DNA from: a virus
Lineage: Duplodnaviria; Heunggongvirae; Uroviricota; Caudoviricetes
Reading direction: 5' to 3' (one strand)
IMG/VR virus record: IMGVR_UViG_2737471844_000002
Coordinates: 10,565-74,564 of that record
DNA length: 64,000 nt
Under the pieces are notes generated by a model. That model had not been told where the DNA came from and searched no databases. It saw nothing but the letters and a program-made list of their open reading frames with translations. Below, one piece after another: positions 3,943 to 54,251 of this stretch. The translations under genes and the position numbers were made by a program. Each line of letters opens with the position of its first letter. The first letter of the stretch is position 1.

Positions 3943-4312
3943 TGCGTGTCGCGTTTATCGGTTTATTACCATACCCGACTCGTTTTTGGGCTTCTGCGTT
4001 AATGACAAAGCCGCATGTCCTGATGGCTGACAGCATCATCCCTGCACCGAAACGCCGTACAGGCATTGCGGCGGCGAGACGAGCAGCAAAGAAACGCAGG
4101 AGAACAAAACGATGAAAAACCGTAAGGCAAAAATTCTGTTAGCTCGCAGAAACGGTGTTGGGGTCTGGCGATGGTTGAGGATTAGTAACAGACGAGTGAG
4201 GTTGACGGGGTGTTGCGGGGTGATGTTGTACAGCTGTTGCAAAAAGCCCAGCGCGGCGCAAAACCGCTGGAAGAATCACACTAACGCAAAGTAATTAAAT
4301 AATAACCAATAA

Positions 4313-4359
4313 CAGACCAAAACATATGTTTTGGTCTGCCAAAAGTGATGTTTTGGTCA
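4313..4359. promoter_or_regulatory. palindrome cluster (candidate operator)
   Basis: 26-bp perfect palindrome cagaccaaaacatatgttttggtctg at 4313-4338, followed by a further ccaaaag...ttttggtc inverted pair; four TTTTGGTC-like half sites in alternating orientation. Confidence 0.35.
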
Positions 4360-4361
4360 TT

Positions 4362-4640
4362 ATGAAGATTGAACAAATCGGAATGGCAGCTTTCAGGCAA
4401 CAGGCTGAAAGCGGTGGCGTGGATGAGTTCGTCGTGCAGCGGTTCAGTGGTGTGTATCACCTCTTCGCTGTGAATCGCCGCGCCGGGGTGTCCTATTTTC
4501 TACAGGAACGCCGTGGCGATTACAAGACGTGGCTGTCTCTTGACCGTGCCGCCGCGTTCCTGTCAGGGATTGGCGTTTCACGTTTTACCGTGCGTTTTGA
4601 GGATAATAAACATGCTGAAAAAGATGATCGGGGCCATTAA
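4362..4640 (+). CDS. hypothetical protein
   Basis: Internal ATG 4362 (MKIEQIG...) of track ORF 4326-4640; lies directly downstream of the palindrome cluster. Confidence 0.3.
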   Translation: MKIEQIGMAAFRQQAESGGVDEFVVQRFSGVYHLFAVNRRAGVSYFLQERRGDYKTWLSLDRAAAFLSGIGVSRFTVRFEDNKHAEKDDRGH

Positions 4641-5010
4641 AGCCGGTCAGGCGTATCTGGGGTGGGATGATGCCCTTTATCGCCAGACGCTGGCCCGCCT
4701 GACAGGTAAAACAAGCACCACACGCTGCAACCTCGATGAACTGCGCATCATCCGGGAATACATGCACGAACAGGGATTTCCGCGCAAAGCGCCCGCCGGT
4801 AAAGGTCGCCGCCCCCGTGTTGCAATGAGCAGAAAATCAGTATTATCCAAAATTGAAGCGTTGCTGGCTGATGCCGGTCGTTCCTGGGTGTATGCGGAAG
4901 GACTGGCATCTCACATGTATAAGCAACATGTGATCGAATGGCTGACAGATGATCAGCTGTTTGGGGTGATGGTGGCGCTGGTAAAAGATTCAAGAAGGAG
5001 AAATCAATGA
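4612..5010 (+). CDS. GemA-like (Mu gp16-like) regulatory protein
   Basis: ATG 4612 with gagga SD-like sequence upstream; 132-aa product resembles the Mu GemA/DUF1018 family (from memory). Confidence 0.5.
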   Translation: MLKKMIGAIKAGQAYLGWDDALYRQTLARLTGKTSTTRCNLDELRIIREYMHEQGFPRKAPAGKGRRPRVAMSRKSVLSKIEALLADAGRSWVYAEGLASHMYKQHVIEWLTDDQLFGVMVALVKDSRRRNQ

Positions 5011-5510
5011 TGAAAAAATGGTTGTTTTGTTTAGTAGGGGTTATTTTATCTTTTCCTGCAGCGGCTGAATGGTACGCAGGTGTACAGGAAGATGCATTCA
5101 ACGAACAAAAAACAGCTATGCTGGTTGAGTTAGATAATGGTCGCTTTGGTGTTGTTTTTGATTGCAACAGTGATGGTTTATTCGTATCAGTTGTAGAAAA
5201 ATCAAAGAAAACTGAAAGTGTAACCAAAGAGCTTCCCGTTGATCTAATTTTCAGGATAGATAACCACCCAGCAGTGAAAATGACTGGGGTATTTACACGA
5301 CGAAATGAAAATTTGTACGGGTATAGATCGGATGATGCCAGTAGCATCAAGGAATTGTTATCTTACTTACGTAAAGCAAATGATCGTATTTTAGCCGGTG
5401 CTAAATTTTCTGATGAAAAAAGAGGGATATCGTTTGATATCACGCCAATCGGCTCCACATCAGGTGTTAATAAATTCATCAAAGCCTGTAACATCACGAT
5501 TCCAGAGTAA
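5007..5510 (+). CDS. secreted protein of unknown function (moron)
   Basis: 167-aa ORF with a signal-peptide-like N-terminus (MMKKWLFCLVGVILSFPAAAEW); visibly AT-rich relative to flanking genes; followed by its own terminator. Confidence 0.55.
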   Translation: MMKKWLFCLVGVILSFPAAAEWYAGVQEDAFNEQKTAMLVELDNGRFGVVFDCNSDGLFVSVVEKSKKTESVTKELPVDLIFRIDNHPAVKMTGVFTRRNENLYGYRSDDASSIKELLSYLRKANDRILAGAKFSDEKRGISFDITPIGSTSGVNKFIKACNITIPE

Positions 5511-5520
5511 CCTAATAGCC

Positions 5521-5547
5521 GCCCCTGCCATGCAGGGGCTTTTTTTG
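5521..5547 (+). terminator. rho-independent terminator
   Basis: gcccctgcc atg caggggc hairpin followed by a run of seven T. Confidence 0.6.
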
Positions 5548-5552
5548 TGGTC

Positions 5553-5580
5553 TGTACAGGCGATCATGTATGGCTATAAT
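5553..5580 (+). promoter_or_regulatory. candidate sigma-70 promoter upstream of mor-like gene
   Basis: tgtaca (5553-5558), 16-nt spacer, tataat (5575-5580); about 30 nt upstream of ATG 5610. Confidence 0.3.
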
Positions 5581-5609
5581 AACAGTAAGTTACTACCGGA
5601 GACGCCATC

Positions 5610-6077
5610 ATGCAGACCTTCAGTGAAACAGATCTTCGCGATGCACAGGCACTGCTACCCGATTCCGTGCAGCAACTGATTAGCGTGATTGGCTTCCCCG
5701 CCCTGACCCGGTTAATCCGTTCTTTTGGTGGCGTGACGTTAAGCGGTAAAACCGGCGCACACGCCGAACGCACCGGCGGTGTCCATGCCCTGTTACATGA
5801 CGTGCTGACCGAAGACGAAATCAACAAACTGATCCGCTTTCTTGGCGGTGCGCCGTTTTATATTCCCCGTTGCGATCATGCGTTACGTGCCCTGCGTAAC
5901 TCCCGTTTTATGGCTGATTTACAGCAACATATAAAAGGCGGATGCTCACACCGGCAGGCGCTGGCACTGCTTTGTCCACGTTACGGAATTTCAGACCGGT
6001 ACGCATGGCAACTGATACACCGACGACAAAAACAGACTTCGCTGAAAAGCCCCACCCAGGTGGGGCTTTTTGATTAA
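5610..6077 (+). CDS. Mor/C-family transcriptional activator
   Basis: 155-aa ORF; product resembles the Mu Mor / C late-activator family with a C-terminal HTH-like region (from memory). Confidence 0.55.
   Translation: MQTFSETDLRDAQALLPDSVQQLISVIGFPALTRLIRSFGGVTLSGKTGAHAERTGGVHALLHDVLTEDEINKLIRFLGGAPFYIPRCDHALRALRNSRFMADLQQHIKGGCSHRQALALLCPRYGISDRYAWQLIHRRQKQTSLKSPTQVGLFD
6048..6072 (+). terminator. rho-independent terminator overlapping the mor-like stop
   Basis: agccccacc cagg tggggct hairpin followed by ttttt; overlaps the last codons of the ORF. Confidence 0.45.
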
Positions 6078-6102
6078 TGGGCCTCAGAAAAAGGAGACAC
6101 TT

Positions 6103-6381
6103 ATGACCAACTATACGGCCCTTGCCGAGTATACGGCCTACTCAGAGCAGGCCCGGGATGCTGCCGGACGCCGCTTCGCTTATATGAAAAATCTGTCCAG
6201 CCAGCTAAACCGAATGGCCGAACAACCGGATATGATTGTTCATGAAGAAGCGTTGCAGTGTGCCATTGCTGATATTATCGCCAGTGAAAACGAGATGCGA
6301 GCCGCTCTGGAAAAAGCAAACGCCTCTGCTCCGCTTTGCAATAAACCTCTTATTACGCCGGATTCCCTTTCCCGCTTCTGA
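6103..6381 (+). CDS. hypothetical protein
   Basis: ATG 6103 (MTNYTALAEY...) within track ORF 6070-6381; no recognisable domain. Confidence 0.3.
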   Translation: MTNYTALAEYTAYSEQARDAAGRRFAYMKNLSSQLNRMAEQPDMIVHEEALQCAIADIIASENEMRAALEKANASAPLCNKPLITPDSLSRF

Positions 6382-6403
6382 TTTATCACCCCGCCACGGT
6401 GGG

Positions 6404-6427
6404 GTGCTGAACTCCCCCAGCAGTACC
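6404..6427 (+). promoter_or_regulatory. conserved late-operon element, copy 1 (upstream of lysis genes)
   Basis: gtgctgaactcccccagcagtacc; shares the GTGCTGAACWCCCYC core with copies at 14500 and 26443; preceded by the dyad ccccgccacggtgggg. Confidence 0.45.
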
Positions 6428-6500
6428 TGCCACTCCATACCGCCTATCCTGTCCACTCAGTCTGTAAAACACGCAGGGATAACACTCACAGGAGAATTTC

Positions 6501-20817: not shown

Positions 20818-20976
20818 ATGACCATGAGCCGTCCCGAGTTGGACGGCTGGCTTGCCGCCGTTGACAGGCTGAACGGCGGCGGCTCAGGAAGGAAGGACAC
20901 CTCACAGACCACCCGCCAGTCATTTAAATCCCTCAGAAAGAAACGCAGAAAAGGTAAGCAGAAAAATGGCCGGTAA
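20818..20976 (+). CDS. small basic ORF before tape measure (possible chaperone frameshift extension)
   Basis: 52-aa ORF; its frame is open back to 20698, overlapping the 3-prime end of the chaperone gene in the -1 frame; no canonical slippery heptamer found. Confidence 0.25.
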   Translation: MTMSRPELDGWLAAVDRLNGGGSGRKDTSQTTRQSFKSLRKKRRKGKQKNGR

Positions 20977-23248
20977 TTTCAAAGTTGGCATGACCCTGAC
21001 TGCGAAGGACGAAGCCTCGCAGGTTCTGGAAAAGGGACAAAAACAGGTTATCAAAGCCACCGAAGGTGTAACAAAGGCAACCCGGAAGGCAGGCGCAGAG
21101 CAGAAGCGTACCGAGCAGGAAAGCATTAACAGCACGAAAAAGGCCGCAAAAGAGATACAGCGTGCCGCCCGTGCCCGGGAAACGCTCGGTATTCGTGCAG
21201 AGCGTGAGATCCGGCGTGAAATTTATCTGACGGTTGCCAGTTATAACCGTCTGGCCCGCGCCGGTTTTGAATCTGCGCAGGAGCAGGAGCGCGCCATGCA
21301 GGCCACCCGGGAAAAAGCCCGGGCACTCAAGCGCGAACTGGATGGCGTTACTCAGGCTCAGATGAAGATGGCGAAAACGCCTGTTATCCCTGAACAGGGA
21401 CGTTTTGCCCGTGCGGCTGCATTTGGCGGGAATGCCGTGACAATAGGCGGAGGTATCGCGGCAGGTGCTGCCATTATGGCGCAGCCAGTCAAAAAGCAGA
21501 TGAGCTACGAACGCCAGCTGGCAATGATGGCCAATACCGCCTTCAGTGATGGCGGTCTGGAGGGGCGCAGGGCTGGTCTTGAGCAGATGAAAAGCAGCAT
21601 CCGTAACGCAGTGACCTATGGTGGCGGCACGAAAGAGGATGCGGCCGAAACGCTGGATGCCCTGCTGAAAGATGGCGGTATTTCATTTGAAACAGCCAGT
21701 AAGTGGCTGCCTGAACTGATGAAATACGCCACGGCTTCTGGTGCATCAGCGACAGACCTGGCTAATGTGATGCTTAAGGGCAAAAAGACGTTTGGATTCA
21801 GGGATGAAGATATTTCCACCGTTCTGAATATGGCAATTGCAGCGGGCAAAGAAGGCAGCTTTGAGCTGAGCGACATGGCCCGATGGTTATCTTCGCAGCT
21901 GGGGTCAGCGTCAGCTGCGGGGATGAGAGGCAAGGATGATTTTGTCAAGATTCTGGCACTGAATGAAGCTGCCGCCATCACGGCGGGAAGCAGTGATGAG
22001 GCCGGAAATAACGTGTTTAACCTGCTGGCTAAACTGACCAGCCACGATATTGAAACAGCGGCAAAGAGCATTGATTACAACGGTAAAGGAATTGATTTTT
22101 CCGGCACGCTGGTTCAGGCGCGTGAACATGGACTTGATCCGATAGATGCGCTGTCCAGCCTGATAGACAAAATCGTTGCCAGCGATAAACGCTTTCAGGA
22201 GTTGCAAAAGAAACTGGCCTCCGCCCGGGATAAGGGCGAGCAGACAGCTGTTTATGATTCGATGGCAAAACTCCTTGAAGGCTTTGGTGTCGGGAAACTG
22301 GTTGCAGACCAACAGGCGTTAAAAGCGTTGCTGGCTTACCGTAACAACCCGGAATACCGGAAAAAGGTTGAAGACGCGATTAATCAGCAGCGCACCCTGC
22401 CGGAAGGCCAGCGCGCGGGTGATGTGGATTTTAACTTCATATCCGGCCTCAATGACTTTAAAACCGAACAAGCTAAAAACACGTTTGAATTTTCACAAAT
22501 GGACAGCGTGAAAAAGCTGGCTGATGCGTCCGGTACTGTGGCCGATGCCATAAGCTGGGCGGGTGAAAAATTTCCGGGGCTGACCACAGCAGTGGTGGGT
22601 GCCACGACCGCCATTGAAGCGATGACCGCAGCGGCTCTGACATGGGCCGGGATCAAAATCCTGACCGGGGGTAAACCTGGTGGCAAGGCTGGCGAGGTTG
22701 TCGGTGATGTCATTGAAAACACGGTCAAAAAAGGCAAAGGATTTAAAATCCCCGGCATTGCCGGTAGCCTGCTTTCTTTCGGTGGCACCGTTACGGCACT
22801 GGCCACCGCAACCAGCCCGGAAGAAGACGCCGCCGTCGAAGGAAGCGAGGAGCGCTGGAAAAATATACGGGCTAAATATCCTCAGTGGCTGATTGATGCT
22901 GCCCGTGAAAAATATCAGCCGTGGTGGCAGTTTGGCGAAGGTTACTCAACAGAAAACGAGAAATGGATCCAGCAGTATCTTGACGAACTGAAAAAAACCG
23001 GGGTTATCGCCGGTGATTCTCTGCCGACACCAGAACAAGTCCGACAGCAAGCCGGAATGGCAGCGTCTGAAACGGCATCAAAGCAACCCAGACGCATCAC
23101 CCAGCCGGAATACCTCACGCACTGGGGACCACCTGCCAGCCCCATTAATTTCACCACACAACTGGTGCTCGATGGTCAGGTCATAGCGGAGGCAGTGAAC
23201 AAATACAACCTTCAGGACGGCAACAGAGGCACGGGAGGAACTTACTGA
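20966..23248 (+). CDS. tail tape measure protein
   Basis: 760-aa Ala/Gly-rich ORF in tape-measure position. Confidence 0.75.
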   Translation: MAGNFKVGMTLTAKDEASQVLEKGQKQVIKATEGVTKATRKAGAEQKRTEQESINSTKKAAKEIQRAARARETLGIRAEREIRREIYLTVASYNRLARAGFESAQEQERAMQATREKARALKRELDGVTQAQMKMAKTPVIPEQGRFARAAAFGGNAVTIGGGIAAGAAIMAQPVKKQMSYERQLAMMANTAFSDGGLEGRRAGLEQMKSSIRNAVTYGGGTKEDAAETLDALLKDGGISFETASKWLPELMKYATASGASATDLANVMLKGKKTFGFRDEDISTVLNMAIAAGKEGSFELSDMARWLSSQLGSASAAGMRGKDDFVKILALNEAAAITAGSSDEAGNNVFNLLAKLTSHDIETAAKSIDYNGKGIDFSGTLVQAREHGLDPIDALSSLIDKIVASDKRFQELQKKLASARDKGEQTAVYDSMAKLLEGFGVGKLVADQQALKALLAYRNNPEYRKKVEDAINQQRTLPEGQRAGDVDFNFISGLNDFKTEQAKNTFEFSQMDSVKKLADASGTVADAISWAGEKFPGLTTAVVGATTAIEAMTAAALTWAGIKILTGGKPGGKAGEVVGDVIENTVKKGKGFKIPGIAGSLLSFGGTVTALATATSPEEDAAVEGSEERWKNIRAKYPQWLIDAAREKYQPWWQFGEGYSTENEKWIQQYLDELKKTGVIAGDSLPTPEQVRQQAGMAASETASKQPRRITQPEYLTHWGPPASPINFTTQLVLDGQVIAEAVNKYNLQDGNRGTGGTY

Positions 23249-24597
23249 TGGGCTGGGCTGAAAACCTGCAAAACGCCTCCTTTCGTGGCGTGCAGTTTGA
23301 TGTGCTGAACACGGATGAACAAATCAGCCGCGACCATGCGGTCTATGAATACCCGTTTGTTGACGGGGCGGATTTGCACGACCTCGGACGCAAGGCGCGA
23401 CCGTTCCGCATGACGGCGTTCCTGTGGGGAGAGTATTACGAATATAAACTTGAAAAGCTGATCGCCGCCCTGGACGAAGGCGGTGCTGGTGAGCTGATTC
23501 ACCCGGTTTATGGCTCCGTACCATCGGTGATTGTGACCGGCTACAGTATTCGCCATGACGCAGAAAGCCCGGACAGCTGCACCATCGACATGAGTTTTCT
23601 GGAGAACCGCACCGGCAGCGCGTTGTTCAGCACCCCGTTACCGGAGCTGTTTGCACAGCAGTTATTTGAAGAACTGGATAAGTTACTGGCACAGTTAAGC
23701 GAATTATTTGACGCTGTTACGGCCCCATTAAAGACCATTAACAGCGTGATTAAAAAAATCCAGACGGTACGCGCCACGCTGGTGAATACCCTGCTGACGT
23801 TCAAAAGCGATTTTCTCTCATCCATCGACAATATGATGTCGCTGGCCAGCGAACCAGGAAAGTTCATCGGCGGGCTGGCAGAGGTGCTGGAAATCCACAC
23901 GTCAGATGTCGGGCACGCGGTGCCGGTGCTGGAGCGTACTGATTCCGCCACCACGACCGGACTGACCGGGGAAGACAGCGTCGCCAGTTCTGCGACAGTG
24001 ATGACCTGCTGGAATGAGGTGATGGCAGATATGGATGAGCTGGTCGCGCTGCCGGTCGCACTGGTCAGCGGTGATAAAACGCCGTCTGTGGCACTTCCGC
24101 CGGATGCGTCCGTGGAAGACGTGCAGGACGTGAAAGCGGCTTATGCGGTTTTGGCAGCCTCAGAGCTGGCCAGCGTGGCGACGGCGATACTGTCAGATGA
24201 GGCCCAGTCAGAGCCGCTTATACCGGCGGATATCGGGCGACTGGTCGGGGATGTGCGCACCCGCTTACAAGCAGCCATCACGCTGTTCCGTGAACGCTAT
24301 GAAGGCGAACGCGAACGGATAACCGAAACCGCATCACCGCTGGGGCTGATGTACCCGGAAATCATTCAGAGCATGAAGAACGTGGCGGCATCCGTGCAGG
24401 ATGTCGGCCTGCTGGTTCTGTCTCGCCGCCCACCACTGACGCAGAAACAGGTGCAGGCGGACAGTTGCCTGCTGTTGCTGGCGTGGCAGTGGTACGGTGA
24501 TTACAGCCGTGCGGCAGAGCTGCAACGTCTGAACCCGCAGCTGCGTGACCCGAACAACATAACTGCCGGGATGGTGATTAATGCCTATGCAAAATAA
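23248..24597 (+). CDS. DNA circularization protein (Mu N-like)
   Basis: 449-aa ORF; resembles Mu gpN. Confidence 0.7.
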   Translation: MGWAENLQNASFRGVQFDVLNTDEQISRDHAVYEYPFVDGADLHDLGRKARPFRMTAFLWGEYYEYKLEKLIAALDEGGAGELIHPVYGSVPSVIVTGYSIRHDAESPDSCTIDMSFLENRTGSALFSTPLPELFAQQLFEELDKLLAQLSELFDAVTAPLKTINSVIKKIQTVRATLVNTLLTFKSDFLSSIDNMMSLASEPGKFIGGLAEVLEIHTSDVGHAVPVLERTDSATTTGLTGEDSVASSATVMTCWNEVMADMDELVALPVALVSGDKTPSVALPPDASVEDVQDVKAAYAVLAASELASVATAILSDEAQSEPLIPADIGRLVGDVRTRLQAAITLFRERYEGERERITETASPLGLMYPEIIQSMKNVAASVQDVGLLVLSRRPPLTQKQVQADSCLLLLAWQWYGDYSRAAELQRLNPQLRDPNNITAGMVINAYAK

Positions 24598-32183: not shown

Positions 32184-34727
32184 GTGGATGAAGCCATGGC
32201 CTCGCTGCGCCTGCTGCCGTCCTATCTGCGCGATCCGCTTATTCGCCACCTCTCCTTCCTTCGCAAAAAACAGGAAGCCGATCGCCGGAAAGGCAAAAAG
32301 AGCTGGCAGGCGGAACGCTATGCACGCGGAACCCTGCGCAAAATATTCGAACGTCTGGATCGCACTGACGGACGCTGGCTGACACCGGGTTATCGCTCCC
32401 TTGCCGGACGCGAACGCCTGGACGATTTGCTTTACCTGCCGCAGCTCAACAAACACCAGATACAGACGTTGGCCACCATGACGGCGGCGATGTTCAGCAG
32501 CACCTTCGAAAAGCTCTGCGATGGCTTTGGCGCCAGAGATGGCGAGCTGACCATGGATGTAATGTTGAAGGCTTACCGGATGCTGGCTCGTATCGCATTA
32601 CGCCTGCACATCATGCCGCCACATTACGAAGCCCTGAACAAGAGCGAACCGGATACGGAACTGCTGCCGGGCGCAATCCTTCGCCTGACCTGTGCGGACT
32701 GGTGGAAACGCAAACTGTGGCTGTTACGTTGCGAGTGGAGAGAAGAACAACTCCGCGCCGCCTGTCTGGTTTCCAGAAAAACATCGCCTTATCTGAGCCA
32801 GGACGCGTTAAGCGAGTTTCGCGCACAGCGCGAGAAAACACGCGATTTCCTGAAAAGTTTCATGCTGGAAAACGAAGACGGGTTCACGATTGATCTCGAG
32901 ACAGTGTATTACGCGGGAGTAAGTAACCCGGTTCACCGTAAGGCAGAAATGATGGCCACCATGAAGGGGCTGGAACTTCTGGCCGAAGCCCGTGGTGACA
33001 AAGCGGTGTTTCTGACTGTCACCTGCCCGTCAAAATACCACGCAACAACGGAGAACGGTCATCCGAATCCCAAATGGAACGGGGCCACCATGCGCGACTC
33101 CAGCGATTACCTGGTTAACACGTTTTTTGCGGCGGTCCGCAAGAAACTGAACCGCGACGGCCTGCGCTGGTATGGCATCCGCACGGTGGAGCCTCACCAT
33201 GACGGCACCGTGCACTGGCATATGATGGTCTTTGCCCATCCGGAAGAAATCGACACCATTGTGTCCCACACCCGCGATATTGCCATTCAGGAAGATCGTC
33301 ACGAGCTGGGCGATGATATTACTCCGCGCTTTAAGGCGGAGTATGTCGACGGCTCAAAAGGCACGCCAACCAGCTACATCGCCACCTACATCGGAAAAAA
33401 CCTGGACAGCCGCGCCGTGGATGGCATCGCCCCGAAAACAGGCAAACCACGCGTTGACCACGAAACCGGAAAATCAATGGCCGAGAGCGTGGAGCGCGCC
33501 ATCGGCTGGGCGCGCCTTCACCGGGTCCGCCAGTTCCAGTTCTTTGGCATCCCCTCCCGTCAGGTGTGGCGTGAACTGCGCCGCCTTGCCAGCCAGATGG
33601 CACGCAACCCGGAAGGCCCGCAACGGCTGAAGGACGACGCAATGGATGCGGTACTCGCTGCCGCTGATGCCGGGTGTTTTGCCTCCTACATTGAAAAACA
33701 GGGTGGCGTACTTGTTCCACGCAAGGACTACCTGATTCGCACCGCCTACGACCTCGCAGATGAGCTGAACGATTACGGCGAACAGAGCGTACAGATTTAC
33801 GGGATCTGGTCACCACTCATCGGGGAATCCTCCCGTGTGTGCACGCACCCGGATAACTGGAAGCTGGTAAGACGTAAACCGGAAGCGGAAGACAGCGCCC
33901 GCGAAAATTGTTTTGACCTTCAGGGCGGCCCTGCCGCCCCTTGGACTCGTGGCAATAACTGTCCCCGTGTACAGGAAACGGACAACAACGGGACAGAACA
34001 GCCGGAAGAACGGCCAGCACCGTGGCCGCAGCTTCCTGACGGCGTTGATGTGGATGAATGGATGCGCTCACTGAAACGGCACGAACGCCGGGCGCTGATG
34101 CGTTCGCTGCGTGACAAACAGGCCAAAAACAGCAGTGATGAAATGCAGAACTGGACACAGAGCCGCAAACAGCCACAGCCTTTGCCTGATAAACACGAAT
34201 TACTCGCTAAAGAATGGCGGGAGTCTGCCGAATCTCTCGGCCTGCATATCGGTGAACAGCAGATGCAGCACCTGTTACGGGGCGGCAGCCTGTACGTTGA
34301 CGGCAGCATCATTGCACCGCAGGGATTTGAAATTGTACGCAAACCGGATACCCGCCCGGACAGCCGAATCACGCAGCTCTGGCAGCGCCTGAGCCGTAAT
34401 CACGGCGTAAGCAGCACGGAGATCCGCCATAACCCGGTCGCCAGCTATCTGGCACAGCTCGGGGCATCAGACCCCGAAGCCGCCGCACGCCTGGCATCCA
34501 CACTTCAGCAGGACCAGAACACCATGAAAACACCCGTTACCGTGCTTTCTGACATGCTGCGCGCCATTCGTGACGCAGAGCACGCACAGAGAATCAGTGA
34601 AACCACTGAACACGCCCGCCGCAAAGCAGACCTGCTGCGGGGTAGCCTGACCAGTGGCAACAAAAAACAGACAGAAACGGGATTCACAAATCCCGCAAAT
34701 GAGCAAAAAACGCGCCGCGATATATGA
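32184..34727 (+). CDS. A: P2-type replication initiation endonuclease gpA
   Basis: 847-aa ORF (GTG 32184 or ATG 32196); contains the rolling-circle initiator signatures VEPHHDGTVHWHMM and YIATYIGKNLD (paired Tyr). Confidence 0.8.
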   Translation: MDEAMASLRLLPSYLRDPLIRHLSFLRKKQEADRRKGKKSWQAERYARGTLRKIFERLDRTDGRWLTPGYRSLAGRERLDDLLYLPQLNKHQIQTLATMTAAMFSSTFEKLCDGFGARDGELTMDVMLKAYRMLARIALRLHIMPPHYEALNKSEPDTELLPGAILRLTCADWWKRKLWLLRCEWREEQLRAACLVSRKTSPYLSQDALSEFRAQREKTRDFLKSFMLENEDGFTIDLETVYYAGVSNPVHRKAEMMATMKGLELLAEARGDKAVFLTVTCPSKYHATTENGHPNPKWNGATMRDSSDYLVNTFFAAVRKKLNRDGLRWYGIRTVEPHHDGTVHWHMMVFAHPEEIDTIVSHTRDIAIQEDRHELGDDITPRFKAEYVDGSKGTPTSYIATYIGKNLDSRAVDGIAPKTGKPRVDHETGKSMAESVERAIGWARLHRVRQFQFFGIPSRQVWRELRRLASQMARNPEGPQRLKDDAMDAVLAAADAGCFASYIEKQGGVLVPRKDYLIRTAYDLADELNDYGEQSVQIYGIWSPLIGESSRVCTHPDNWKLVRRKPEAEDSARENCFDLQGGPAAPWTRGNNCPRVQETDNNGTEQPEERPAPWPQLPDGVDVDEWMRSLKRHERRALMRSLRDKQAKNSSDEMQNWTQSRKQPQPLPDKHELLAKEWRESAESLGLHIGEQQMQHLLRGGSLYVDGSIIAPQGFEIVRKPDTRPDSRITQLWQRLSRNHGVSSTEIRHNPVASYLAQLGASDPEAAARLASTLQQDQNTMKTPVTVLSDMLRAIRDAEHAQRISETTEHARRKADLLRGSLTSGNKKQTETGFTNPANEQKTRRDI

Positions 34728-34768
34728 AGCGCGCACAAAACAGGCGAAAGCGGGATTTAAAAATCCCG
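34677..34768. promoter_or_regulatory. two CGGGATT-N4-AATCCCG palindromes (candidate ParR centromere/operator)
   Basis: cgggattcacaaatcccg at 34677-34694 and cgggatttaaaaatcccg at 34751-34768, just upstream of parM. Confidence 0.35.
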
Positions 34769-34803
34769 TAAACGGTTAATTAACCAACATAAGGAAAATC
34801 GAC

Positions 34804-35763
34804 ATGAAAATTTGTATCGACGACGGCTCCACCAACATCAAGCTGGCATGGACTGAAAACGGCGAACGCCGCAACGCCATCAGCCCGAACAGCTTCAAGT
34901 CGGAATGGTCTGCGCCGTTCGGTGGCTCGCAGCCTGCGAACTACATGCTTGATGGCGTGCGCTATGGTTTTGATCCGGTCAGCGATCGCTTTGTCCAGAC
35001 GACCGACACGCAATACCAGTACAGCGATGTGAATGTCATTGCCATTCATCACGCGCTGGTCAAATCAGGCATCACGCCACAGGAAGTGGATGTTGTTGTC
35101 ACCCTGCCACTGAGCGAATATTTCGACACTAACGCCCAGCCGGACATGGCCAACATCAACCGCAAAAAAGCGAACGTTATGCGCCCGGTGGAGTACCAGA
35201 ACGGTGAGGCATTCACTATCCGTAACGTGCGGGTTATGCCTGAATCCATTCCGGCTGGCTTTAAGGCACTGGCTGACATGAGTCCGTTTGAATCCCTGCT
35301 GATTGTGGATTTGGGCGGAACCACGCTGGATGTGGCAAAGGTTCAGGGGCAACTGGCAGGTATCAGCCAGGTGTTTTGCGATCCACACGTAGGCGTTTCT
35401 CTGATGGCCGATGCCGTACTGTCGGTGATGGCCACTAACGGTATGCGCACCAGTCACCACATAGCCAATACCATTATCGAACATCGCCATGATGAAGCCT
35501 GGCTGCGCCAGCACATCCACAATGACGCGCATTACGCCAGCCTGATGGCGGTTATTCGTGAAAAGGAAGAAACACTGAAACAACGTGTTATCCGCGCGCT
35601 GGCGGTTTTTTCGGGTTACGGGCGGGTGATGGTTGTCGGTGGAGGGGCGGAGATTGTGGCACCCGCTATCCGCGAAGCCTGCGGAGTTAATGCGACTTTC
35701 ATCGCGGACGGGGTGCCACAGTTTGCTCTGGTTAATGGGCTGTACGCAATGGACAAGGAGTAA
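34804..35763 (+). CDS. parM: ParM/StbA actin-like segregation ATPase
   Basis: 319-aa ORF; strong resemblance to plasmid R1 ParM (MKICIDDGSTNIKL, YSDVNVIAIHHAL, LLIVDLGGTTLD). Confidence 0.8.
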   Translation: MKICIDDGSTNIKLAWTENGERRNAISPNSFKSEWSAPFGGSQPANYMLDGVRYGFDPVSDRFVQTTDTQYQYSDVNVIAIHHALVKSGITPQEVDVVVTLPLSEYFDTNAQPDMANINRKKANVMRPVEYQNGEAFTIRNVRVMPESIPAGFKALADMSPFESLLIVDLGGTTLDVAKVQGQLAGISQVFCDPHVGVSLMADAVLSVMATNGMRTSHHIANTIIEHRHDEAWLRQHIHNDAHYASLMAVIREKEETLKQRVIRALAVFSGYGRVMVVGGGAEIVAPAIREACGVNATFIADGVPQFALVNGLYAMDKE

Positions 35764-36457: not shown

Positions 36458-37540
36458 ATGGTAAACGTGAGGGAGGATGAACTTTTCAAACTCATCGAGC
36501 AAGGCATCAAAGGCAACGCAAATGCATTTACACTCCTATGCAGAAAGATGATTAACAACATCCGTAAAAATGATGAGGCTTTAGCTTCTAAGCTGGCTTC
36601 GTTAGTTGCTGAGGGAACAGTATTACGTGGGGCATCTAGTAAGGCTCCTATGCCTGTGGATGGAGACTCCAGACGAAACCTTTTGCAGGAAACATCTGTC
36701 AACGCAATTGTTGAAGAACCTGTATGGAATACGGATATCTCAAAGAAGCTGGAGTCAATTGTTAACGAAAGAGAGAATGCGGTTTCTTTGTTCAAAGCTG
36801 GTCTTGAACCTGTGAAGACGGTTTTACTTTCTGGCCCGCCAGGCGTAGGCAAAACAATGTCCGCACATTGGCTTGCTGCAAAGTTAAATTTACCTCTTTT
36901 AACATTGGATCTCTCATCTGTAATGAGTTCTCTTTTGGGAAAAACAGGTAATAATATTAAATCCGTTATGGATTATGCCAAAGAGAAACCATGTGTCCTT
37001 TTGCTTGATGAATTTGATGCTGTTGCAAAAAGACGTGATGATGACAGGGACGTTGGAGAATTAAAACGTTTAGTTACTGTACTCCTACAGACCATAGATG
37101 AGTGGCCAGCGACCTCGCTTCTTGTTGCTGCGACTAATCACCCTGATATCTTAGATCCGGCTGTTTGGCGTCGATTTGAGCACATCCTTAAATTTAATAT
37201 GCCATCAGTAGAACTGATAGATAGATATTTAGTCAATCATAATATTGAACCTGAACTATCTAAAAAACTTGCACCATTATTAGATGGCATGTCCTTTGCC
37301 ATCATTAACCGTATTTTGAATTTCTCCAAAAAGAATGAGGTACTTAGAAATATTCCATTTGAAAGCTCATTAATAGAAGCCGTAATTACGGAGAGGGTTT
37401 CATTGGATGAGTTTAGCGATAATGATCTCAATATAATTAAATATCATTTTGACGGTTTTTCAAATAGGAAGATAGCTGAATTAGTTGGTGTTTCACATCC
37501 AACAATCGCGAATAAATTACAAAAGTGGGGGATTAAATGA
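36458..37540 (+). CDS. AAA+ ATPase with C-terminal HTH domain
   Basis: 360-aa ORF; Walker A GPPGVGKT, Walker B LLLDEFD, sensor/Arg-finger region ATNHPDILDPAVWRRFE; C-terminal GFSNRKIAELVGVSHPTIANKLQKWG helix-turn-helix; AT-rich. Confidence 0.8.
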   Translation: MVNVREDELFKLIEQGIKGNANAFTLLCRKMINNIRKNDEALASKLASLVAEGTVLRGASSKAPMPVDGDSRRNLLQETSVNAIVEEPVWNTDISKKLESIVNERENAVSLFKAGLEPVKTVLLSGPPGVGKTMSAHWLAAKLNLPLLTLDLSSVMSSLLGKTGNNIKSVMDYAKEKPCVLLLDEFDAVAKRRDDDRDVGELKRLVTVLLQTIDEWPATSLLVAATNHPDILDPAVWRRFEHILKFNMPSVELIDRYLVNHNIEPELSKKLAPLLDGMSFAIINRILNFSKKNEVLRNIPFESSLIEAVITERVSLDEFSDNDLNIIKYHFDGFSNRKIAELVGVSHPTIANKLQKWGIK

Positions 37541-39741
37541 TGGAAAGGAACTTACTTTTAGGTAACGGTCATGTTCTGACAAAAAAGGAACCTTTGCCTA
37601 AAGGAAGGGATGGTAAGCGCTATCCCTATACTCTTGAAGAAGTAAGGGAGCATTTAAACCCAGAGATTGATACTTTACTCTCACGCTTTCGCAGTTTGGA
37701 TGATGCGGCTAAGCCAAGGGGGGAGAGTGTATTCAATTTAACTTTACACCCAGCGTTTTTGGGTAAAAGCTACTTTCCGGAAGGATTGCTTAGAGCGACA
37801 GGTTTACGGGATGTCGGTAGCCGTCAGGTAATCATTCGCCCACGGAAAGCGGCACGTCAGTGCGATCAGAATAAGGACTTAGTAACGGCGCAACTGTTTG
37901 TTAGCGGTGATGATGATGCCGTTATAAGATTTAAGGAAATTTTAAATTCCCCTACAGCTCCGAAGGGCGTACAAAAGGATTTGATCGAAATTGAAAGTGT
38001 TAGCTTTTTTGAAGGAAAAGAGAGAGCACGCAATTTTGAGCATGCGAAAAGTGATTTGATAAAATTTGAAGTGGTTCTTCATGCTGGGGTTGAAGACGAT
38101 GATATCGTTAAAGCCTATATTAGCTATGCGGCACAATATGATGTCTCTGTTGATTACAAAAGTAGAATCCAAGTTGGTGGGCTGACTTTCATCGTTGCAC
38201 ACGCGCGACCTGAAGATATGAAAAAAACACTCGATTTTTCATTAATCCGCGTTGTGCGGCCGATGCCGTCTCTCAGGTGTACTCAGCCGAACATTGTCAG
38301 AAAGTTATCTAATATAGTTACACCGGAGCTCCCTAATTCTAAAGCTGTTCTTGAATCCGAACGTATTGCCATTTTTGATGGTGGCTTGGGGACAGCTGAC
38401 TTGAGTAATTGGGTTACGGAATACGTGTATCCAGACACCAAAGAAACAAGCGGATTATTATTGCAGCACGGTAATGAAGTGACATCCACTTTCTTATTCG
38501 GACGTGTCGAGGAAAATGCACCTTCTTTTAAAAGACCGTTTATGAATGTAGATCATTATAGAGTTCTTTCACCGACATCAGGTGACAATGGCAATTGGGA
38601 TTTATTTGATGTCCTTAAGAAAATACAGTCCGTTCTTGATAGTGGTGACTATAAGTTCGCTAATCTAAGTATTGGTCCTCATCTTCCAATTGGTGATGAT
38701 GAGGTTCATGTATGGACTGCTGTTTTAGACCAAATCTGTGCTAAGCATGGGATATTACTTACTGTTGCTGTTGGGAATGATGGCAATGAGGACGGTGATG
38801 CAGCGAGAATACAACCTCCTTCCGATATGGTAAACGCGCTAGCGATTGGTGCTGCTGATCGTAGCGGTGAAAAATGGGGGCGGGCACCATATAGCTGTAT
38901 TGGGCCAGGCAGAAGCCCCGGATTCGTTAAACCTGATGGTGTTATTTTTGGTGGAAGCGACGACGAGCCTTTTTACACTTACAACCCTCTGCTTGGTTCT
39001 ATAGTTGGAGTTCAAGGAACCAGTTATGCCTCTCCATTAGCATTGAGAACGGCCGCTGGAGTTGCGGCTCTATCAGGAACTCCATTGAACACCATTGCAT
39101 TGAAAGCGTTGCTTGTTCATCATGCTGAAACATCAAGAAAATATTCGCGTGAACATATCGGTTGGGGACGGTTTAGTGAGGATCCTAACGTTTTAATCGA
39201 TTGTCCAAATGATACTGCTACAGTAATTTACTATGGTTCATTAGCAAAAAATAAATATTTAAGGGCACCGATCCCATTCCCTGATGTTCCCTTTGACGAA
39301 GCATTTGAGCTTACCGCTACTTTATGCATTCAAACCCCAGTAGATCCTGAACATTCAGTAAACTATACAAGGGCCGGTATGCAGGTAACTTTCCGCCCAA
39401 GATTCGGCCTTGACGATACCGATACAGATGATTTCTTTGGTCAAAAAAGCCAGTATAAGACTGAAAGGGAGTGTAGGAGTGAAGGTCATAAATGGGAAAC
39501 TTGTTTGCACAGAAGCAAAAAGTTCAGTGCTGATACATTATTAAGCGATCCAGTTTTTGATATACGGTATCATGCCCGAGATTCTTCGCGCCATGTTAAG
39601 GGAGTTTCAGCCCCTGATATGCAATATGCGATGGTAATAAGCGTAAGGGTAAAAGACTTTGATTTATATAATGTTATTCGCCAGCGATATACAATTCTGA
39701 ATCCTATTCAACTGCGCACACAAATTTCTCTCGACACGTAA
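37537..39741 (+). CDS. S8 subtilisin-like serine protease with N- and C-terminal extensions
   Basis: 734-aa ORF with ATGA overlap to the ATPase gene; catalytic triad motifs IAIFDGGLG (Asp codon 38377-38379), LQHGNEV (His codon 38467-38469), GTSYASP (Ser codon 39022-39024) in canonical D-H-S order and spacing. Confidence 0.8.
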   Translation: MMERNLLLGNGHVLTKKEPLPKGRDGKRYPYTLEEVREHLNPEIDTLLSRFRSLDDAAKPRGESVFNLTLHPAFLGKSYFPEGLLRATGLRDVGSRQVIIRPRKAARQCDQNKDLVTAQLFVSGDDDAVIRFKEILNSPTAPKGVQKDLIEIESVSFFEGKERARNFEHAKSDLIKFEVVLHAGVEDDDIVKAYISYAAQYDVSVDYKSRIQVGGLTFIVAHARPEDMKKTLDFSLIRVVRPMPSLRCTQPNIVRKLSNIVTPELPNSKAVLESERIAIFDGGLGTADLSNWVTEYVYPDTKETSGLLLQHGNEVTSTFLFGRVEENAPSFKRPFMNVDHYRVLSPTSGDNGNWDLFDVLKKIQSVLDSGDYKFANLSIGPHLPIGDDEVHVWTAVLDQICAKHGILLTVAVGNDGNEDGDAARIQPPSDMVNALAIGAADRSGEKWGRAPYSCIGPGRSPGFVKPDGVIFGGSDDEPFYTYNPLLGSIVGVQGTSYASPLALRTAAGVAALSGTPLNTIALKALLVHHAETSRKYSREHIGWGRFSEDPNVLIDCPNDTATVIYYGSLAKNKYLRAPIPFPDVPFDEAFELTATLCIQTPVDPEHSVNYTRAGMQVTFRPRFGLDDTDTDDFFGQKSQYKTERECRSEGHKWETCLHRSKKFSADTLLSDPVFDIRYHARDSSRHVKGVSAPDMQYAMVISVRVKDFDLYNVIRQRYTILNPIQLRTQISLDT

Positions 39742-40246: not shown

Positions 40247-41293
40247 TCAGGATGTGGGCTGGGTATCTAACAGTGCGTAAGGGTTAAAGCGGATCACCTC
40301 TTCGCCAAGCCAGTCATTGATGTGCTTCATGGCCTCCATGACGGGCATCAGCTCGTTAATTGCGTAAACCCGCGCGGCCTTCTCCACATCACCAAACGCA
40401 CTTTTTTCACCCGGCATCGCCCCCATCAGTTGCGGCGGAACGCGGTGCGCAGCCAGCACATCATCACGGGATGCCGCCTTAACATTCATGAACTCATCCT
40501 TTGCGGTGATCTGCTGGAACGGCAAAATTTGCACACCTTCTTTGCCACCGTTGGGCGCATGAATGAGCACGTTTTTAAATGCACCACCACCACGCGCACC
40601 CTGTAACGTTTCTTTCAGGGAGTCCATGCTTTCGCGGTTTACCTGCGCTGCACCGATGTAGATGATGCACCCGGCGTGGGATCCGTTGTCGTAATACAGT
40701 TTTCTGAACATGTCCGCCGAATGAGACAGGCTGGCCGAGAGTAATGCGCCGAGATATTCCGGCATGCCGTAGATTTCCTGGTTAATGTCAGGATTCATCA
40801 GGTGGCACACTTTGCCAGGGCGAAACTGAAACGCATCCTTGCCATCCTGCACATACCACCATGATTCAAGATCGCTTCCGCGTCGCATGTATTTCGCCAG
40901 GGCGTGCCGTAATTTAAGCGGTTCGCCGAGCATATTGCTTCGAAGCTCAAGGAATGCGTTACCGAACACAAACCAGTCCAGCGCCAGCGCCGAGAAATCC
41001 TGCCGGGAAAGCAGCGGGTGCGGAATATAGCAGCCGAGCAATACATTGCGCTTAAAGTAAAGCGCAGACTGATGCCAGGACGTTTGCCGGGCAGCTCTTG
41101 CCAGACCGTACCAGTCCACCGGGGTTTCATACCACCGCCCGTTATCAGCACAGTACATATTGTCCAGCAGGTCATGCCCGGTCAGGCGATAAGGACCATC
41201 AAATGTGAATGCACTGAGCGATGATTCTTTCCTGAGCGCATCAGCGAGATCAATGCGTGAACTCATGCGCACTTTTTTATTTTTTCTGCTCAT
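40247..41293 (-). CDS. Q: P2-type portal protein gpQ
   Basis: 348-aa ORF; start codon overlaps the P stop (ATGA); P2 Q-like sequence and position. Confidence 0.8.
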   Translation of the reverse strand: MSRKNKKVRMSSRIDLADALRKESSLSAFTFDGPYRLTGHDLLDNMYCADNGRWYETPVDWYGLARAARQTSWHQSALYFKRNVLLGCYIPHPLLSRQDFSALALDWFVFGNAFLELRSNMLGEPLKLRHALAKYMRRGSDLESWWYVQDGKDAFQFRPGKVCHLMNPDINQEIYGMPEYLGALLSASLSHSADMFRKLYYDNGSHAGCIIYIGAAQVNRESMDSLKETLQGARGGGAFKNVLIHAPNGGKEGVQILPFQQITAKDEFMNVKAASRDDVLAAHRVPPQLMGAMPGEKSAFGDVEKAARVYAINELMPVMEAMKHINDWLGEEVIRFNPYALLDTQPTS

Positions 41294-53588: not shown

Positions 53589-54187
53589 TGACATTCAGAA
53601 TGAGTGAACAATCACGGACCATAAAAATTTATAATCTGCTGGTCGGAACCAATGAATTTATTGGTGAAGGTGATGCATACATTCCACCTCATACAGGTCT
53701 GCCTGCAAATAGTACTGATATTGCTCCGCCAGATATTCCAGCTGGCTTCGTGGCTGTTTTCAACAGTGATGGGGCGTCCTGGCATCTCGTTGAAGATCAT
53801 CGTGGTAAAACGGTTTATGACGTGGCTTCCGGCGACGCGTTATTTATTTCTGAACTCGGTCCGTTACCGGAAAATGTCACCTGGTTGTCGCCGGAAGGGG
53901 AATATCAGAAGTGGAACGGCATAGCCTGGGTGAAGGATACGGAAGCAGAAAAAGTGTTCCGGATACGGGAGGCGGAAGAAACAAAAAACAGCCTCATGCA
54001 GGTAGCCAGTGAGCATATTTCGCCACTTCAAGATGCCGTAGATTTGAATATTGCAACAGAGGAAGAAACATCGTTACTGGTGGCATGGAAGAAGTATCGA
54101 GTGCTGCTGAACCGTGTTGATACATCAAGAGCACCGGATATTGAGTGGCCAGCTTCCCCAGTGGAATCAAGGAGTAAACAAGCATAA
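53588..54187 (+). CDS. G: tail fibre assembly protein gpG
   Basis: 199-aa ORF; ATGA coupling to H. Confidence 0.8.
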
Positions 54188-54251
54188 AGGCTTTCATTTC
54201 AAACCATTGTAGTCCAGTTTTTTGTATAGTACCCTGCTCATTACGGATGAC

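What the first reader, a model, noticed from the sequence alone, without database searches (positions are those of the whole stretch)
5007..5547. AT-rich secreted-protein moron with its own terminator between the GemA-like and Mor-like genes
This ORF is conspicuously AT-rich within an otherwise GC-balanced early region. It encodes a protein with a clear signal-peptide-like N-terminus and no recognisable domain, and is followed by a strong rho-independent terminator. Its composition and placement suggest a horizontally acquired cargo gene expressed from the prophage, for example a periplasmic superinfection-exclusion or host-interaction factor.
Basis: partly seen in the sequence, partly recalled or inferred. 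Interest (0 to 1): 0.5.

Follow-up and report, generated by a model that had tools for sequence, protein, structure and literature searches.

The report
Swappable exported-protein gene in Mu-like prophage
This is a real, AT-rich accessory gene in a Mu-like E. coli prophage: it encodes a small protein exported to the periplasm, sits in a slot where related prophages carry other exported proteins or nothing, and has no known function, so it is a fairly ordinary phage cargo gene.

Summary
ORF 5007-5510 (+) is the lowest-GC stretch of the Mu-like prophage (0.379 vs 0.55). It lies between gemA and mor and is followed by a strong hairpin and T-run. It has a Sec-type signal peptide and no Pfam domain.

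The slot is polymorphic. In 58 complete E. coli genomes with 95-96% identical flanks:
- 23 carry an unrelated 158-aa protein with the same signal peptide
- 12 carry a 112-aa exported protein
- 5 carry a distant homologue
- 18 are empty
- none carries this allele

The terminator remains in the empty allele, so it is not the gene's own. The gene overlaps the gemA stop (ATGA) and no promoter was detected, so it is probably the last early-operon cistron rather than prophage-expressed.

Function is inferred only. My best guess is a periplasmic binder of an envelope component that blocks phage entry (about 0.3). It is a new member of a known kind, of moderate-low interest.

The parts
4612..5010 (+). 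gemA (Mu gp16-like), the gene before the slot. Its last ~8 codons differ between slot alleles and here contain the ribosome-binding site of the cargo gene.
   Evidence: Pfam GemA E 9e-18. It is 98.5% identical to GemA of the E2348/69 and E. marmotae prophages. Divergence of the 3' end is seen in alignment A1.
4995..5000 (+). Shine-Dalgarno sequence AAGGAG, 6 nt before the ATG at 5007 and inside gemA.
   Evidence: Read from the sequence. The empty allele (C5) and the TUM1881 allele have a different gemA 3' end without it.
5007..5510 (+). Cargo ORF 'X': 167 aa, AT-rich, member of PHROG 19473. Its start codon overlaps the gemA stop (ATGA at 5007-5010).
   Evidence: dN/dS is 0.10 against the 80% allele. 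218 homologous cluster representatives.
5007..5066 (+). Predicted Sec/SPase I signal peptide (residues 1-20, cleavage AAA|EW). The first 41 nt are identical to the start of an unrelated cargo gene in E2348/69.
   Evidence: Rule-based features and family conservation: -3 Ala in 62/94, -1 Ala in 80/94, +2 Trp in 94/94. Shared 5' end.
5067..5507 (+). Mature domain (147 aa, about 16.4 kDa, pI 5.6). Predicted beta-sandwich with two helices, IalB/MotY-N-like. Cys53 and Cys161 are conserved and presumed to form a disulfide.
5521..5547 (+). Intrinsic terminator (hairpin 5521-5539, then T7). It is a backbone feature that ends the gemA/X transcript.
   Evidence: It is retained in the empty-slot allele and in two other alleles. 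The GPEC349 allele has a different hairpin in its place.
5553..5580 (+). Sigma-70-like promoter match TGTACA-16-TATAAT upstream of mor. It marks the right-hand conserved flank of the slot.
   Evidence: 10 of 12 positions. It is invariant in the four loci aligned in A1 and reads the same in the GPEC349 locus. The same hexamers are present in the Salmonella relative. This is a consensus match only.
5610..6077 (+). mor (Mor/C-family transcription activator), the gene after the slot.
   Evidence: Pfam Mor E 1e-6 and PHROG 836 E 1e-42. It is 97-98% identical across slot alleles.

Best explanation
ORF 5007-5510 is a mobile accessory gene cassette. It is moron-like, but it has no promoter of its own that I could detect. 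It sits in a recombination hot spot at the 3' end of the early operon of a Mu-like E. coli prophage, between gemA and the terminator that precedes mor.

Shown:
- The gene is real and under purifying selection.
- It is compositionally foreign.
- Its alleles are far older than the backbone they sit in.
- The slot alternates between this family, two unrelated genes and an empty state.
- All four cargo types begin with a signal peptide.

Inferred from sequence and model (about 0.85): the product is exported by Sec and cleaved after Ala20. It folds in the periplasm into a roughly 16-kDa, disulfide-bonded beta-sandwich of the IalB/MotY-N type. That fold is known from periplasmic proteins associated with envelope machines.

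Inferred from anatomy (about 0.65): in this lineage it is translated from the early lytic transcript, coupled to gemA by the ATGA overlap. It would then appear soon after infection or induction, not in the quiescent lysogen.

Guess (about 0.3): it binds a periplasmic or envelope component and so blocks entry of superinfecting phages or protects the infected cell envelope. This would resemble the early exclusion proteins of other phages.
For: Gene reality and selection:
- PHROG 19473, E 2e-53.
- 218 cluster representatives at E <= 1e-3, mostly 160-175 aa.
- dN/dS 0.10 over 62.8 synonymous and 39.2 non-synonymous differences against the 80% allele.

Foreign composition:
- It is the lowest-GC window of the prophage.
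- Homologues have GC 0.34-0.43 in every context where it was measured.

Cassette exchange:
- X has dS 1.09, against 0.14-0.15 for gemA and mor.
- Identity break points lie inside the signal peptide and near codon 150.
- Slot census of 58 complete genomes by span of the match: 23, 12, 5 and 18 empty.
- The exact allele is always found as gemA-X-mor in draft assemblies.

Mobility: homologues occur
- before gemA in other Mu-like phages (L010, L012, L013)
- between the tape measure and the Mu gp43-like gene in Morganella, Sodalis and L014
- in a lambdoid immunity region (L015, L017)
- in chromosomal sites (L004, L011)
.

Export: the signal-peptide rule and the conserved Cys pair.

Early-operon placement:
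- ATGA overlap, Shine-Dalgarno inside gemA, and no promoter match upstream.
- The terminator is retained in the empty allele.

Precedent: accessory genes at fixed variable regions of Mu-like phages, and morons that give phage resistance (PMC4378225, PMC9936078, PMC10884400).
Against: - There is no experimental or homology evidence for any function. PADLOC found nothing, and the molecular role of IalB itself is unknown (PMC7327166).
- The promoter scan is a simple consensus search and could miss a weak or non-sigma-70 promoter inside gemA.
- In one relative (L013) the homologue is flanked by terminators with a promoter-like site between them. Prophage expression is therefore plausible in some lineages.
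- Signal-peptide cleavage was judged by rules, not by SignalP or experiment.
- The disulfide is inferred from conservation. Model coordinates could not be inspected.
- A soluble periplasmic protein is not an obvious way to block a phage that uses LPS as its receptor.
Confidence: 0.55

Rival explanations
1. It is a lysogenic-conversion factor. The gene would be expressed from the resident prophage from an undetected promoter. It would benefit the bacterium by altering envelope physiology or the interaction with an animal host, as the name 'invasion-associated' of its structural relative IalB suggests.
For: - The fold resembles IalB.
- AT-rich exported morons are classic conversion genes (background in PMC4378225).
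- In L013 the homologue looks like an autonomous unit: terminator, promoter-like site, ORF, terminator.
- In a lambdoid prophage it lies in the immunity region, which is expressed in lysogens.
- The chromosomal copy in Ewingella has its own upstream region and terminator.
Against: - In this window the ORF is fused to gemA by an ATGA overlap and has no promoter match.
- It matches the IalB Pfam model in none of 94 members.
- A soluble periplasmic protein has no evident route to the cell surface.
- The mechanism of IalB is itself unknown (PMC7327166).
Confidence: 0.2
2. It is a lytic-cycle helper. As an early periplasmic protein it would serve the phage's own development. Examples would be tuning lysis timing as a periplasmic antiholin does, remodelling or protecting peptidoglycan or Tol-Pal, or stopping progeny from adsorbing to debris.
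For: - It is the last cistron of the early operon.
- The lysis cassette (two holins and a GH108 endolysin) starts about 1 kb downstream (annotation).
- Structural relatives act at envelope machines. RgsG, an IalB-domain protein, was studied with the Tol-Pal system in the polar growth zone (PMC7327166). 8z5n_A is a flagellar-motor component in the basal-body LPHT ring.
Against: - 18 of 58 near-identical prophages have an empty slot, and 35 carry unrelated proteins. The function is therefore dispensable and not tied to this backbone.
- Homologues occur with different lysis cassettes and outside Mu-like phages.
Confidence: 0.15
3. It is an orphan periplasmic immunity protein. It would neutralise a periplasm-acting toxin from competitors, such as a type VI effector, a colicin or pesticin-like muramidase, or an incoming phage lysin.
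For: - It is small, exported, disulfide-bonded, AT-rich and mobile.
- Its alleles are highly diverse and old despite purifying selection.
- The slot alternates among several exported proteins.
Against: - No toxin gene is linked in any context examined.
- No structural match to known immunity or lysozyme-inhibitor folds. The top hits are IalB and the 8z5n_A motor protein only.
- No NCBIfam or PADLOC match.
Confidence: 0.08
4. It is a decaying or spurious ORF that merely hitch-hikes in AT-rich filler DNA.
For: - No Pfam, NCBIfam or PADLOC family matches, and PHROG 19473 has no assigned function.
- It is absent from all 5,426 complete E. coli genomes searched.
Against: - dN/dS is 0.10.
- There are 218 full-length homologous cluster representatives with invariant Trp and Cys.
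- The predicted fold is confident.
- It has a strong Shine-Dalgarno sequence.
- The exact protein is recorded in at least 106 blocks of the assembly collection.
Confidence: 0.02

Closest known systems
Phage morons, and the accessory 'regions of genomic plasticity' of Mu-like phages (Juhala/Hendrix concept; Cazares et al. 2014, PMC4378225)
   Same: It is a single ORF that is present or absent between two adjacent conserved genes in closely related phages. Its GC content is atypical and its source is unknown. The same family recurs at other moron sites, namely after the tape measure gene and in a lambdoid immunity region.
   Different: Here it has no detectable promoter and is translationally coupled to the upstream core gene. 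The downstream terminator belongs to the backbone. The slot behaves as an allelic cassette site with break points inside the ORF, rather than as a simple insertion.
IalB, invasion-associated locus B protein (PDB 3DTD; Pfam PF06776 / COG5342), including the periplasmic IalB-domain protein RgsG of Sinorhizobium
   Different: Sequence identity is only 13%. None of 94 family members matches PF06776, and the family profile does not find 3DTD at E <= 10. IalB is chromosomal and alphaproteobacterial. Its mechanism is unknown, so the resemblance transfers little function.
The Vibrio sodium-driven flagellar-motor component in PDB 8z5n chain A, which I take from memory to be MotY (T-ring)
   Different: That protein has 270 residues in the entry, and from memory it carries an OmpA-like peptidoglycan-binding C-terminal domain. 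X is a single domain. There is no sequence similarity, and E. coli has no T-ring.
Envelope-acting superinfection-exclusion proteins of phages (HK97 gp15 moron, T4 Imm/Sp, T5 Llp, lambdoid Cor), recalled from the literature and cited in PMC10884400
   Same: These are small accessory proteins targeted to the envelope. They are encoded by dispensable, often AT-rich genes. Some are made early in infection, and HK97 gp15 lies next to tail genes, as several X homologues do.
   Different: There is no sequence or structural similarity. The known examples are membrane proteins or lipoproteins, whereas X is predicted to be soluble. No phenotype data exist.

Membership tests
Phage moron (classical definition) | Present or absent between two adjacent genes in otherwise closely related phages | tested here: met
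   In strain C5, gemA and mor are separated by only 95 bp. The other alleles carry 112-174-aa ORFs between flanks that are 95-96% identical.
Phage moron (classical definition) | Nucleotide composition different from the neighbouring genes | tested here: met
   GC is 0.379 against 0.52-0.53 in the flanks. It is the lowest 504-bp window in 36 kb.
Phage moron (classical definition) | Own promoter | tested here: not met
   The scan found no sigma-70-like match between 4303 and 5553. The start codon overlaps the gemA stop. The scan is a consensus search only, so a weak promoter is not excluded.
Phage moron (classical definition) | Own terminator | tested here: inconclusive
   A strong terminator follows the ORF. 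A homologous hairpin (a few base differences) is present in the empty allele. The GPEC349 cassette has a different hairpin, and homologues elsewhere are also followed by terminators.
Phage moron (classical definition) | Expressed from the repressed prophage | not testable with these tools
   This needs transcript data from a lysogen.
PHROG 19473 (phage protein family, function unknown) | Significant full-length match to the family profile | tested here: met
   E 2.2e-53, residues 4-165 against profile positions 7-167 of 167. The TUM1881 homologue also matches, at E 5e-35.
IalB family (Pfam PF06776) | Sequence match to the family model at or above the gathering score | tested here: not met
   There is no IalB hit for the protein (E <= 0.1) or for any of 94 homologues (E <= 0.01). 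The profile search of PDB sequences does not find 3DTD at E <= 10.
IalB family (Pfam PF06776) | IalB fold | tested here: met
MotY (flagellar T-ring protein; identity of 8z5n_A assumed from memory) | N-terminal domain plus OmpA-like peptidoglycan-binding C-terminal domain (architecture recalled from memory) | tested here: not met
Sec/SPase I-exported periplasmic protein | n-h-c signal peptide with small residues at -3 and -1; no lipobox | tested here: met
   The N-terminus is MMKK, then a 13-residue hydrophobic core, then P-A-A-A|E. Across the family, -3 is Ala in 62/94 and -1 is Ala in 80/94, and 74 of 93 members pass a simple rule. The residue before Cys8 is Phe, so this is not a lipobox. SignalP was not available.
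Sec/SPase I-exported periplasmic protein | Experimental export or cleavage | not testable with these tools
   This needs a PhoA fusion, fractionation or N-terminal sequencing.
Known anti-phage defence or exclusion proteins | Match to a model of a described defence system | tested here: not met
   PADLOC-DB gave no hit at E <= 1 for X or for the two other cargo proteins tested, the E2348/69 and TUM1881 types.

The most novel reading that the evidence does not exclude
The gemA-mor junction of this prophage lineage may be a dedicated exchange site for exported proteins. All four cargo types found there carry signal peptides. Two unrelated mature domains share an identical signal-peptide-coding 5' end, which serves as a recombination arm. 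On this reading, the X family (PHROG 19473) would be a new class of soluble periplasmic phage effector built on the IalB/MotY-N fold. It would dock onto a conserved envelope machine, such as the flagellar P-ring, Tol-Pal or a DNA-entry route, to exclude competing phages. That would also give the first mechanistic handle on the IalB fold.
Probability: 0.15. Interest if true: 0.6.

Novelty: new member of a known kind. Interest (0 to 1): 0.33.

Why it matters
The finding adds one uncharacterised, fairly widespread family of exported prophage cargo proteins in Enterobacterales, and a well-defined polymorphic slot in a Mu-like prophage lineage that includes the prophage of EPEC strain E2348/69.

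The natural alleles are isogenic apart from the slot: empty, this family, or one of two other exported proteins. That makes a clean genetic test for what exported morons of transposable phages do. A phenotype would also give the first functional clue for the IalB-like fold.

Without a phenotype, it remains one more hypothetical phage accessory gene.

Tried and rejected
Searches that found nothing:
- INPHARED phages: no DNA match (megablast) and no protein match (tblastn) for the locus.
- Complete E. coli genomes: the mature-domain DNA gave no match even in distant mode.
- GTDB species-representative genomes: no confirmed relative.
- Pfam, NCBIfam and PADLOC: nothing for X or for its homologues that were scanned (Pfam: 94 homologues; NCBIfam and PADLOC: X and two other cargo proteins).
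- PDB sequence searches with two profiles returned only noise; the best hit was a de novo designed protein at E 0.04.
- BFVD viral structures gave only weak matches, TM <= 0.51, to unnamed phage proteins.
- Rfam found no RNA family over 4200-6500, only sub-threshold matches to the hairpin at the end of mor.
- Repeats flanking the cassette were only short chance-level matches. There is no sign of a site-specific recombination site.

Tools that could not be used as planned:
- The AlphaFold-database fold library was unavailable.

Ideas considered and rejected:
- Lipoprotein: there is no lipobox.
- The antisense 200-aa ORF 4748-5350 (-): I treat it as a by-product of AT-rich sequence, because the + frame shows dN/dS 0.10.
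- In-situ fast evolution as the cause of allele divergence: synonymous sites are as diverged as replacement sites would predict for old alleles (X dS 1.09 against 0.14 in the flanks).

Full report
**1. The observation**

The window carries an ATG ORF at 5007-5510 (+) encoding 167 aa. Its GC content is 0.379 and its GC3 is 0.321. The neighbours are much GC-richer: gemA is 0.524 and mor is 0.534. It is the lowest-GC 504-bp window anywhere in 1-36000 (mean 0.549, sd 0.044) and the only stretch there at or below 0.42.

The neighbours are a Pfam GemA (4612-5010, E 9e-18) and a Pfam Mor (5610-6077; PHROG 836 E 1e-42).

- The start codon overlaps the gemA stop codon (ATGA at 5007-5010).
- A Shine-Dalgarno sequence, AAGGAG, lies 6 nt upstream, inside gemA.
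- A sigma-70-like match (TGTACA-16-TATAAT, 5553-5580) lies between the terminator and mor.

**2. The gene is real and functional**

Pfam, NCBIfam and PADLOC give nothing. PHROG 19473, of unknown function, matches over its full length (E 2e-53). The word-indexed protein search found only close relatives: 99, 80, 57 and 54% identical, from Escherichia. It also found the family of a 34%-identical homologue from another E. coli prophage.

A profile of these eight sequences was searched exhaustively. It found 218 cluster representatives at E <= 1e-3 and 96 at E <= 1e-10. Nearly all are single-domain proteins of 160-175 aa. Where named, they come from Salmonella, Enterobacter, Ewingella, Sodalis and Morganella. 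None of 94 members matches any Pfam model.

Against the 80% allele, the gene has dN/dS 0.10, from 62.8 synonymous and 39.2 non-synonymous differences. It is therefore a protein-coding gene under purifying selection.

**3. The protein**

The N-terminus MMKKWLFCLVGVILSFPAAA|EW has the n-h-c layout of a Sec signal peptide with an A-x-A cleavage site. The residue before Cys8 is Phe, so there is no lipobox.

Across 94 homologues:
- position -3 is Ala in 62 and -1 is Ala in 80
- the Trp at +2 is invariant
- 92 have exactly two Cys in the mature part, Cys53 and Cys161, which are invariant or nearly so

This pattern fits a periplasmic, disulfide-bonded protein of about 16.4 kDa. The localisation is inferred from sequence, not measured.

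The shallower first model gave the same ranking.

Sequence-level membership of the IalB family was tested and not met. The molecular function of IalB is unknown. A Sinorhizobium IalB-domain protein, RgsG, is periplasmic and essential, and it was studied together with Tol-Pal in the polar growth zone (PMC7327166). The fold therefore says 'periplasmic protein of an envelope-associated kind', and little more.

**4. The slot**

Fifty-eight of 5,426 complete E. coli genomes carry the flanks at 95-96% identity, but none carries this ORF. Even a distant-mode search with the mature-domain DNA finds nothing. I classified the 58 by the length of the matched span and read one example of each class. The results are below.

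| Slot content | Genomes | Example |
|---|---|---|
| Unrelated, probably helical 158-aa protein whose first 41 nt, and hence signal peptide MMKKWLFCLVGVI, are identical to those of X | 23 | E2348/69 |
| 112-aa exported protein with a weak Sel1-like match (PHROG 5882) and a different terminator hairpin | 12 | GPEC349-628 |
| 174-aa distant homologue of X with another signal peptide (PHROG 19473, E 5e-35) | 5 | TUM1881 |
| Empty: gemA followed after 95 bp by mor | 18 | C5 |

All four cargo types are AT-rich (GC 0.38-0.43) and start with a signal peptide.

The alignment of four states shows where the variable region lies. It begins in the last codons of gemA, or for two alleles inside the signal peptide. 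It ends just before the terminator hairpin. The hairpin and the mor promoter-like site are retained in the empty allele.

In draft assemblies, the exact window protein is recorded in 106 blocks of the collection. In every contig read it lies in the order gemA-X-mor.

**5. Evolution**

Between the window and prophages carrying the 80% or 57% alleles, GemA and Mor are 97-98.5% identical with dS 0.10-0.15. X has dS about 1.09.

The identity profile is high until about 5030. It falls to 0.5-0.8 across the mature domain and recovers at about 5450. The alleles are therefore much older than the backbones that carry them. They have been swapped in by homologous recombination, with break points in the signal peptide and the C-terminal helix. 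The pattern does not fit rapid in-situ evolution. No flanking repeats suggest a site-specific mechanism.

**6. The family is a recurrent phage cargo gene**

Homologues of X occur in several settings:
- in the same gemA-X-mor position in a Salmonella Mu-like prophage with a different lysis cassette
- upstream of gemA, followed by a terminator, in three other Mu-like elements. In L013 the arrangement is terminator, promoter-like site, X, terminator, the textbook moron layout.
- between the tape measure gene and the Mu gp43-like DNA-circulation gene in Morganella, Sodalis and an IMG/VR contig
- in what I judge, from the protein sequences, to be the immunity region of a lambdoid prophage
- at chromosomal sites in Ewingella, and next to IS3 and glycosyltransferase genes

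In every context where it was measured the gene is AT-rich (GC 0.34-0.43).

The closest isolated phages by GemA are Pseudomonas phage VW-6B and two Klebsiella phages. None of them has X: the tblastn search of the phage collection found no match. In the two whose gemA region I read, VW-6B and ST405-OXA48phi1.1, gemA and mor overlap or abut.

**7. How it most likely works**

*Shown:* this is a dispensable, horizontally exchanged, selected gene for a protein with a signal peptide. It sits at the end of the gemA transcription unit.

*Inferred, about 0.85:* the protein is exported and folds as an IalB-like domain in the periplasm.

*Inferred, about 0.65:* in this lineage it is made from the early lytic transcript. 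The evidence is the ATGA overlap with gemA, the internal Shine-Dalgarno sequence, the absence of a promoter match, and the backbone terminator downstream. The Mu early operon is repressed in lysogens, which is established Mu biology that I recall rather than tested here. X would therefore act after infection or induction.

*Guess, about 0.3:* it binds an envelope component to block superinfecting phages or to protect the infected cell. The grounds are analogy with early envelope-targeted exclusion proteins, and with accessory genes of Mu-like Pseudomonas phages that give exclusion or defence (PMC9936078, PMC10884400, PMC4378225).

The rivals are:
- a lysogenic-conversion factor, 0.2
- a helper for the phage's own lysis or envelope remodelling, 0.15
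- an orphan immunity protein against periplasm-acting toxins, 0.08
- junk, 0.02, which is contradicted by selection and conservation

**8.

The description is right. So is the idea of a horizontally acquired secreted cargo gene. Two points need correction.

First, the terminator is not the gene's own in this lineage, because it persists when the slot is empty.

Second, the anatomy argues for early-lytic expression rather than prophage expression. That is not met: the gene is present in some syntenic relatives, but it is polymorphic there and always compositionally atypical.

**9. Novelty and interest**

Accessory genes at fixed variable sites of Mu-like phages, and AT-rich exported morons, are well known. 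This is a new, uncharacterised member of that kind. It has a fold assignment (IalB/MotY-N-like) that is not in the sequence-family libraries, and a well-resolved allelic slot.

The most unusual aspect is that every cargo in the slot is an exported protein, and that two unrelated mature domains share one signal-peptide-coding arm. Interest is moderate-low (0.33). It would rise to about 0.6 if the family proved to be a periplasmic anti-phage effector with a defined envelope target.

Noticed in passing
window 36458-39741 (+): This AT-rich pair of genes (GC about 0.40-0.43) encodes an AAA ATPase and an S8 subtilase. They match the IetA/IetS anti-phage defence system (PADLOC IetA E 4e-89, IetS E 7e-41). 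They lie between a P2-type replication gene A plus a ParM-like gene (32184-35763) and the portal and terminase genes (40247-43044, minus strand). This looks like cargo at a P2-like prophage defence hot spot.
   Followed up: partly
window 54222-55460 (+): This very AT-rich ORF (the 54001-55000 window has GC 0.35) encodes 412 aa with a weak glycosyltransferase family 9 (heptosyltransferase) match. It sits directly after a tail-fibre assembly gene (53588-54187) and before P2 gpU (55557-56051, minus strand). It may be an LPS-modifying moron of the P2-like prophage. PADLOC gave no hit.
   Followed up: partly
L001 3708-4184 (E. coli E2348/69, NC_011601.1 2725687-2726163); L029 2643-3122 (Klebsiella phage ST405-OXA48phi1.1): The commonest occupant of the gemA-mor slot is a 158-aa exported, probably helical protein with no family match (23 of 58 genomes). 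By eye it resembles a 159-aa signal-peptide protein encoded just after mor in an isolated Klebsiella Mu-like phage: both share S-C...Y-W...C motifs and a similar C-terminus. The mor gene of that phage record appears to be unannotated (ORF 2162-2632).
   Followed up: partly
L018 992-1330 (E. coli GPEC349-628): A fourth slot allele, in 12 of 58 genomes, encodes a 112-aa exported protein (PHROG 5882, E 2e-57) with a sub-threshold Sel1-repeat match. Unlike the other alleles, it has a different terminator hairpin (CCTTCGCAAACGCGGAGG followed by a T-run).
   Followed up: partly
window 5553-5580 and 6049-6071 (+): mor appears to be a self-contained unit. A promoter-like site that does not vary among the five slot states read lies upstream. 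A second GC-rich hairpin with a T-run (GCCCCAC-CCAG-GTGGGGC TTTTT) overlaps the last codons of mor. I read that hairpin from the sequence. The terminator scan did not list it, and Rfam gave only sub-threshold hits there.
   Followed up: no
L019-L022 and L014, about 6000-6500 in each: A second recurrent insertion site for the same protein family lies between the tape measure gene and the Mu gp43-like DNA-circulation gene of Mu-type tail modules (Morganella, Sodalis, one IMG/VR contig). In Morganella it is accompanied by Arc-like and Bro-N genes. In L014 it is accompanied by a second small exported ORF on the opposite strand. In the window's own prophage that site is unoccupied: 20966-23248 is followed directly by 23248-24597.
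   Followed up: partly
window 6103-6381 (+) and L013 6604-6894: A conserved ORF of about 93 aa (MTNY...AEY.AY...) follows mor in the window. In a distant Mu-like relative it lies between the X terminator and gemA. The small regulatory-region genes are therefore permuted between lineages.
   Followed up: no
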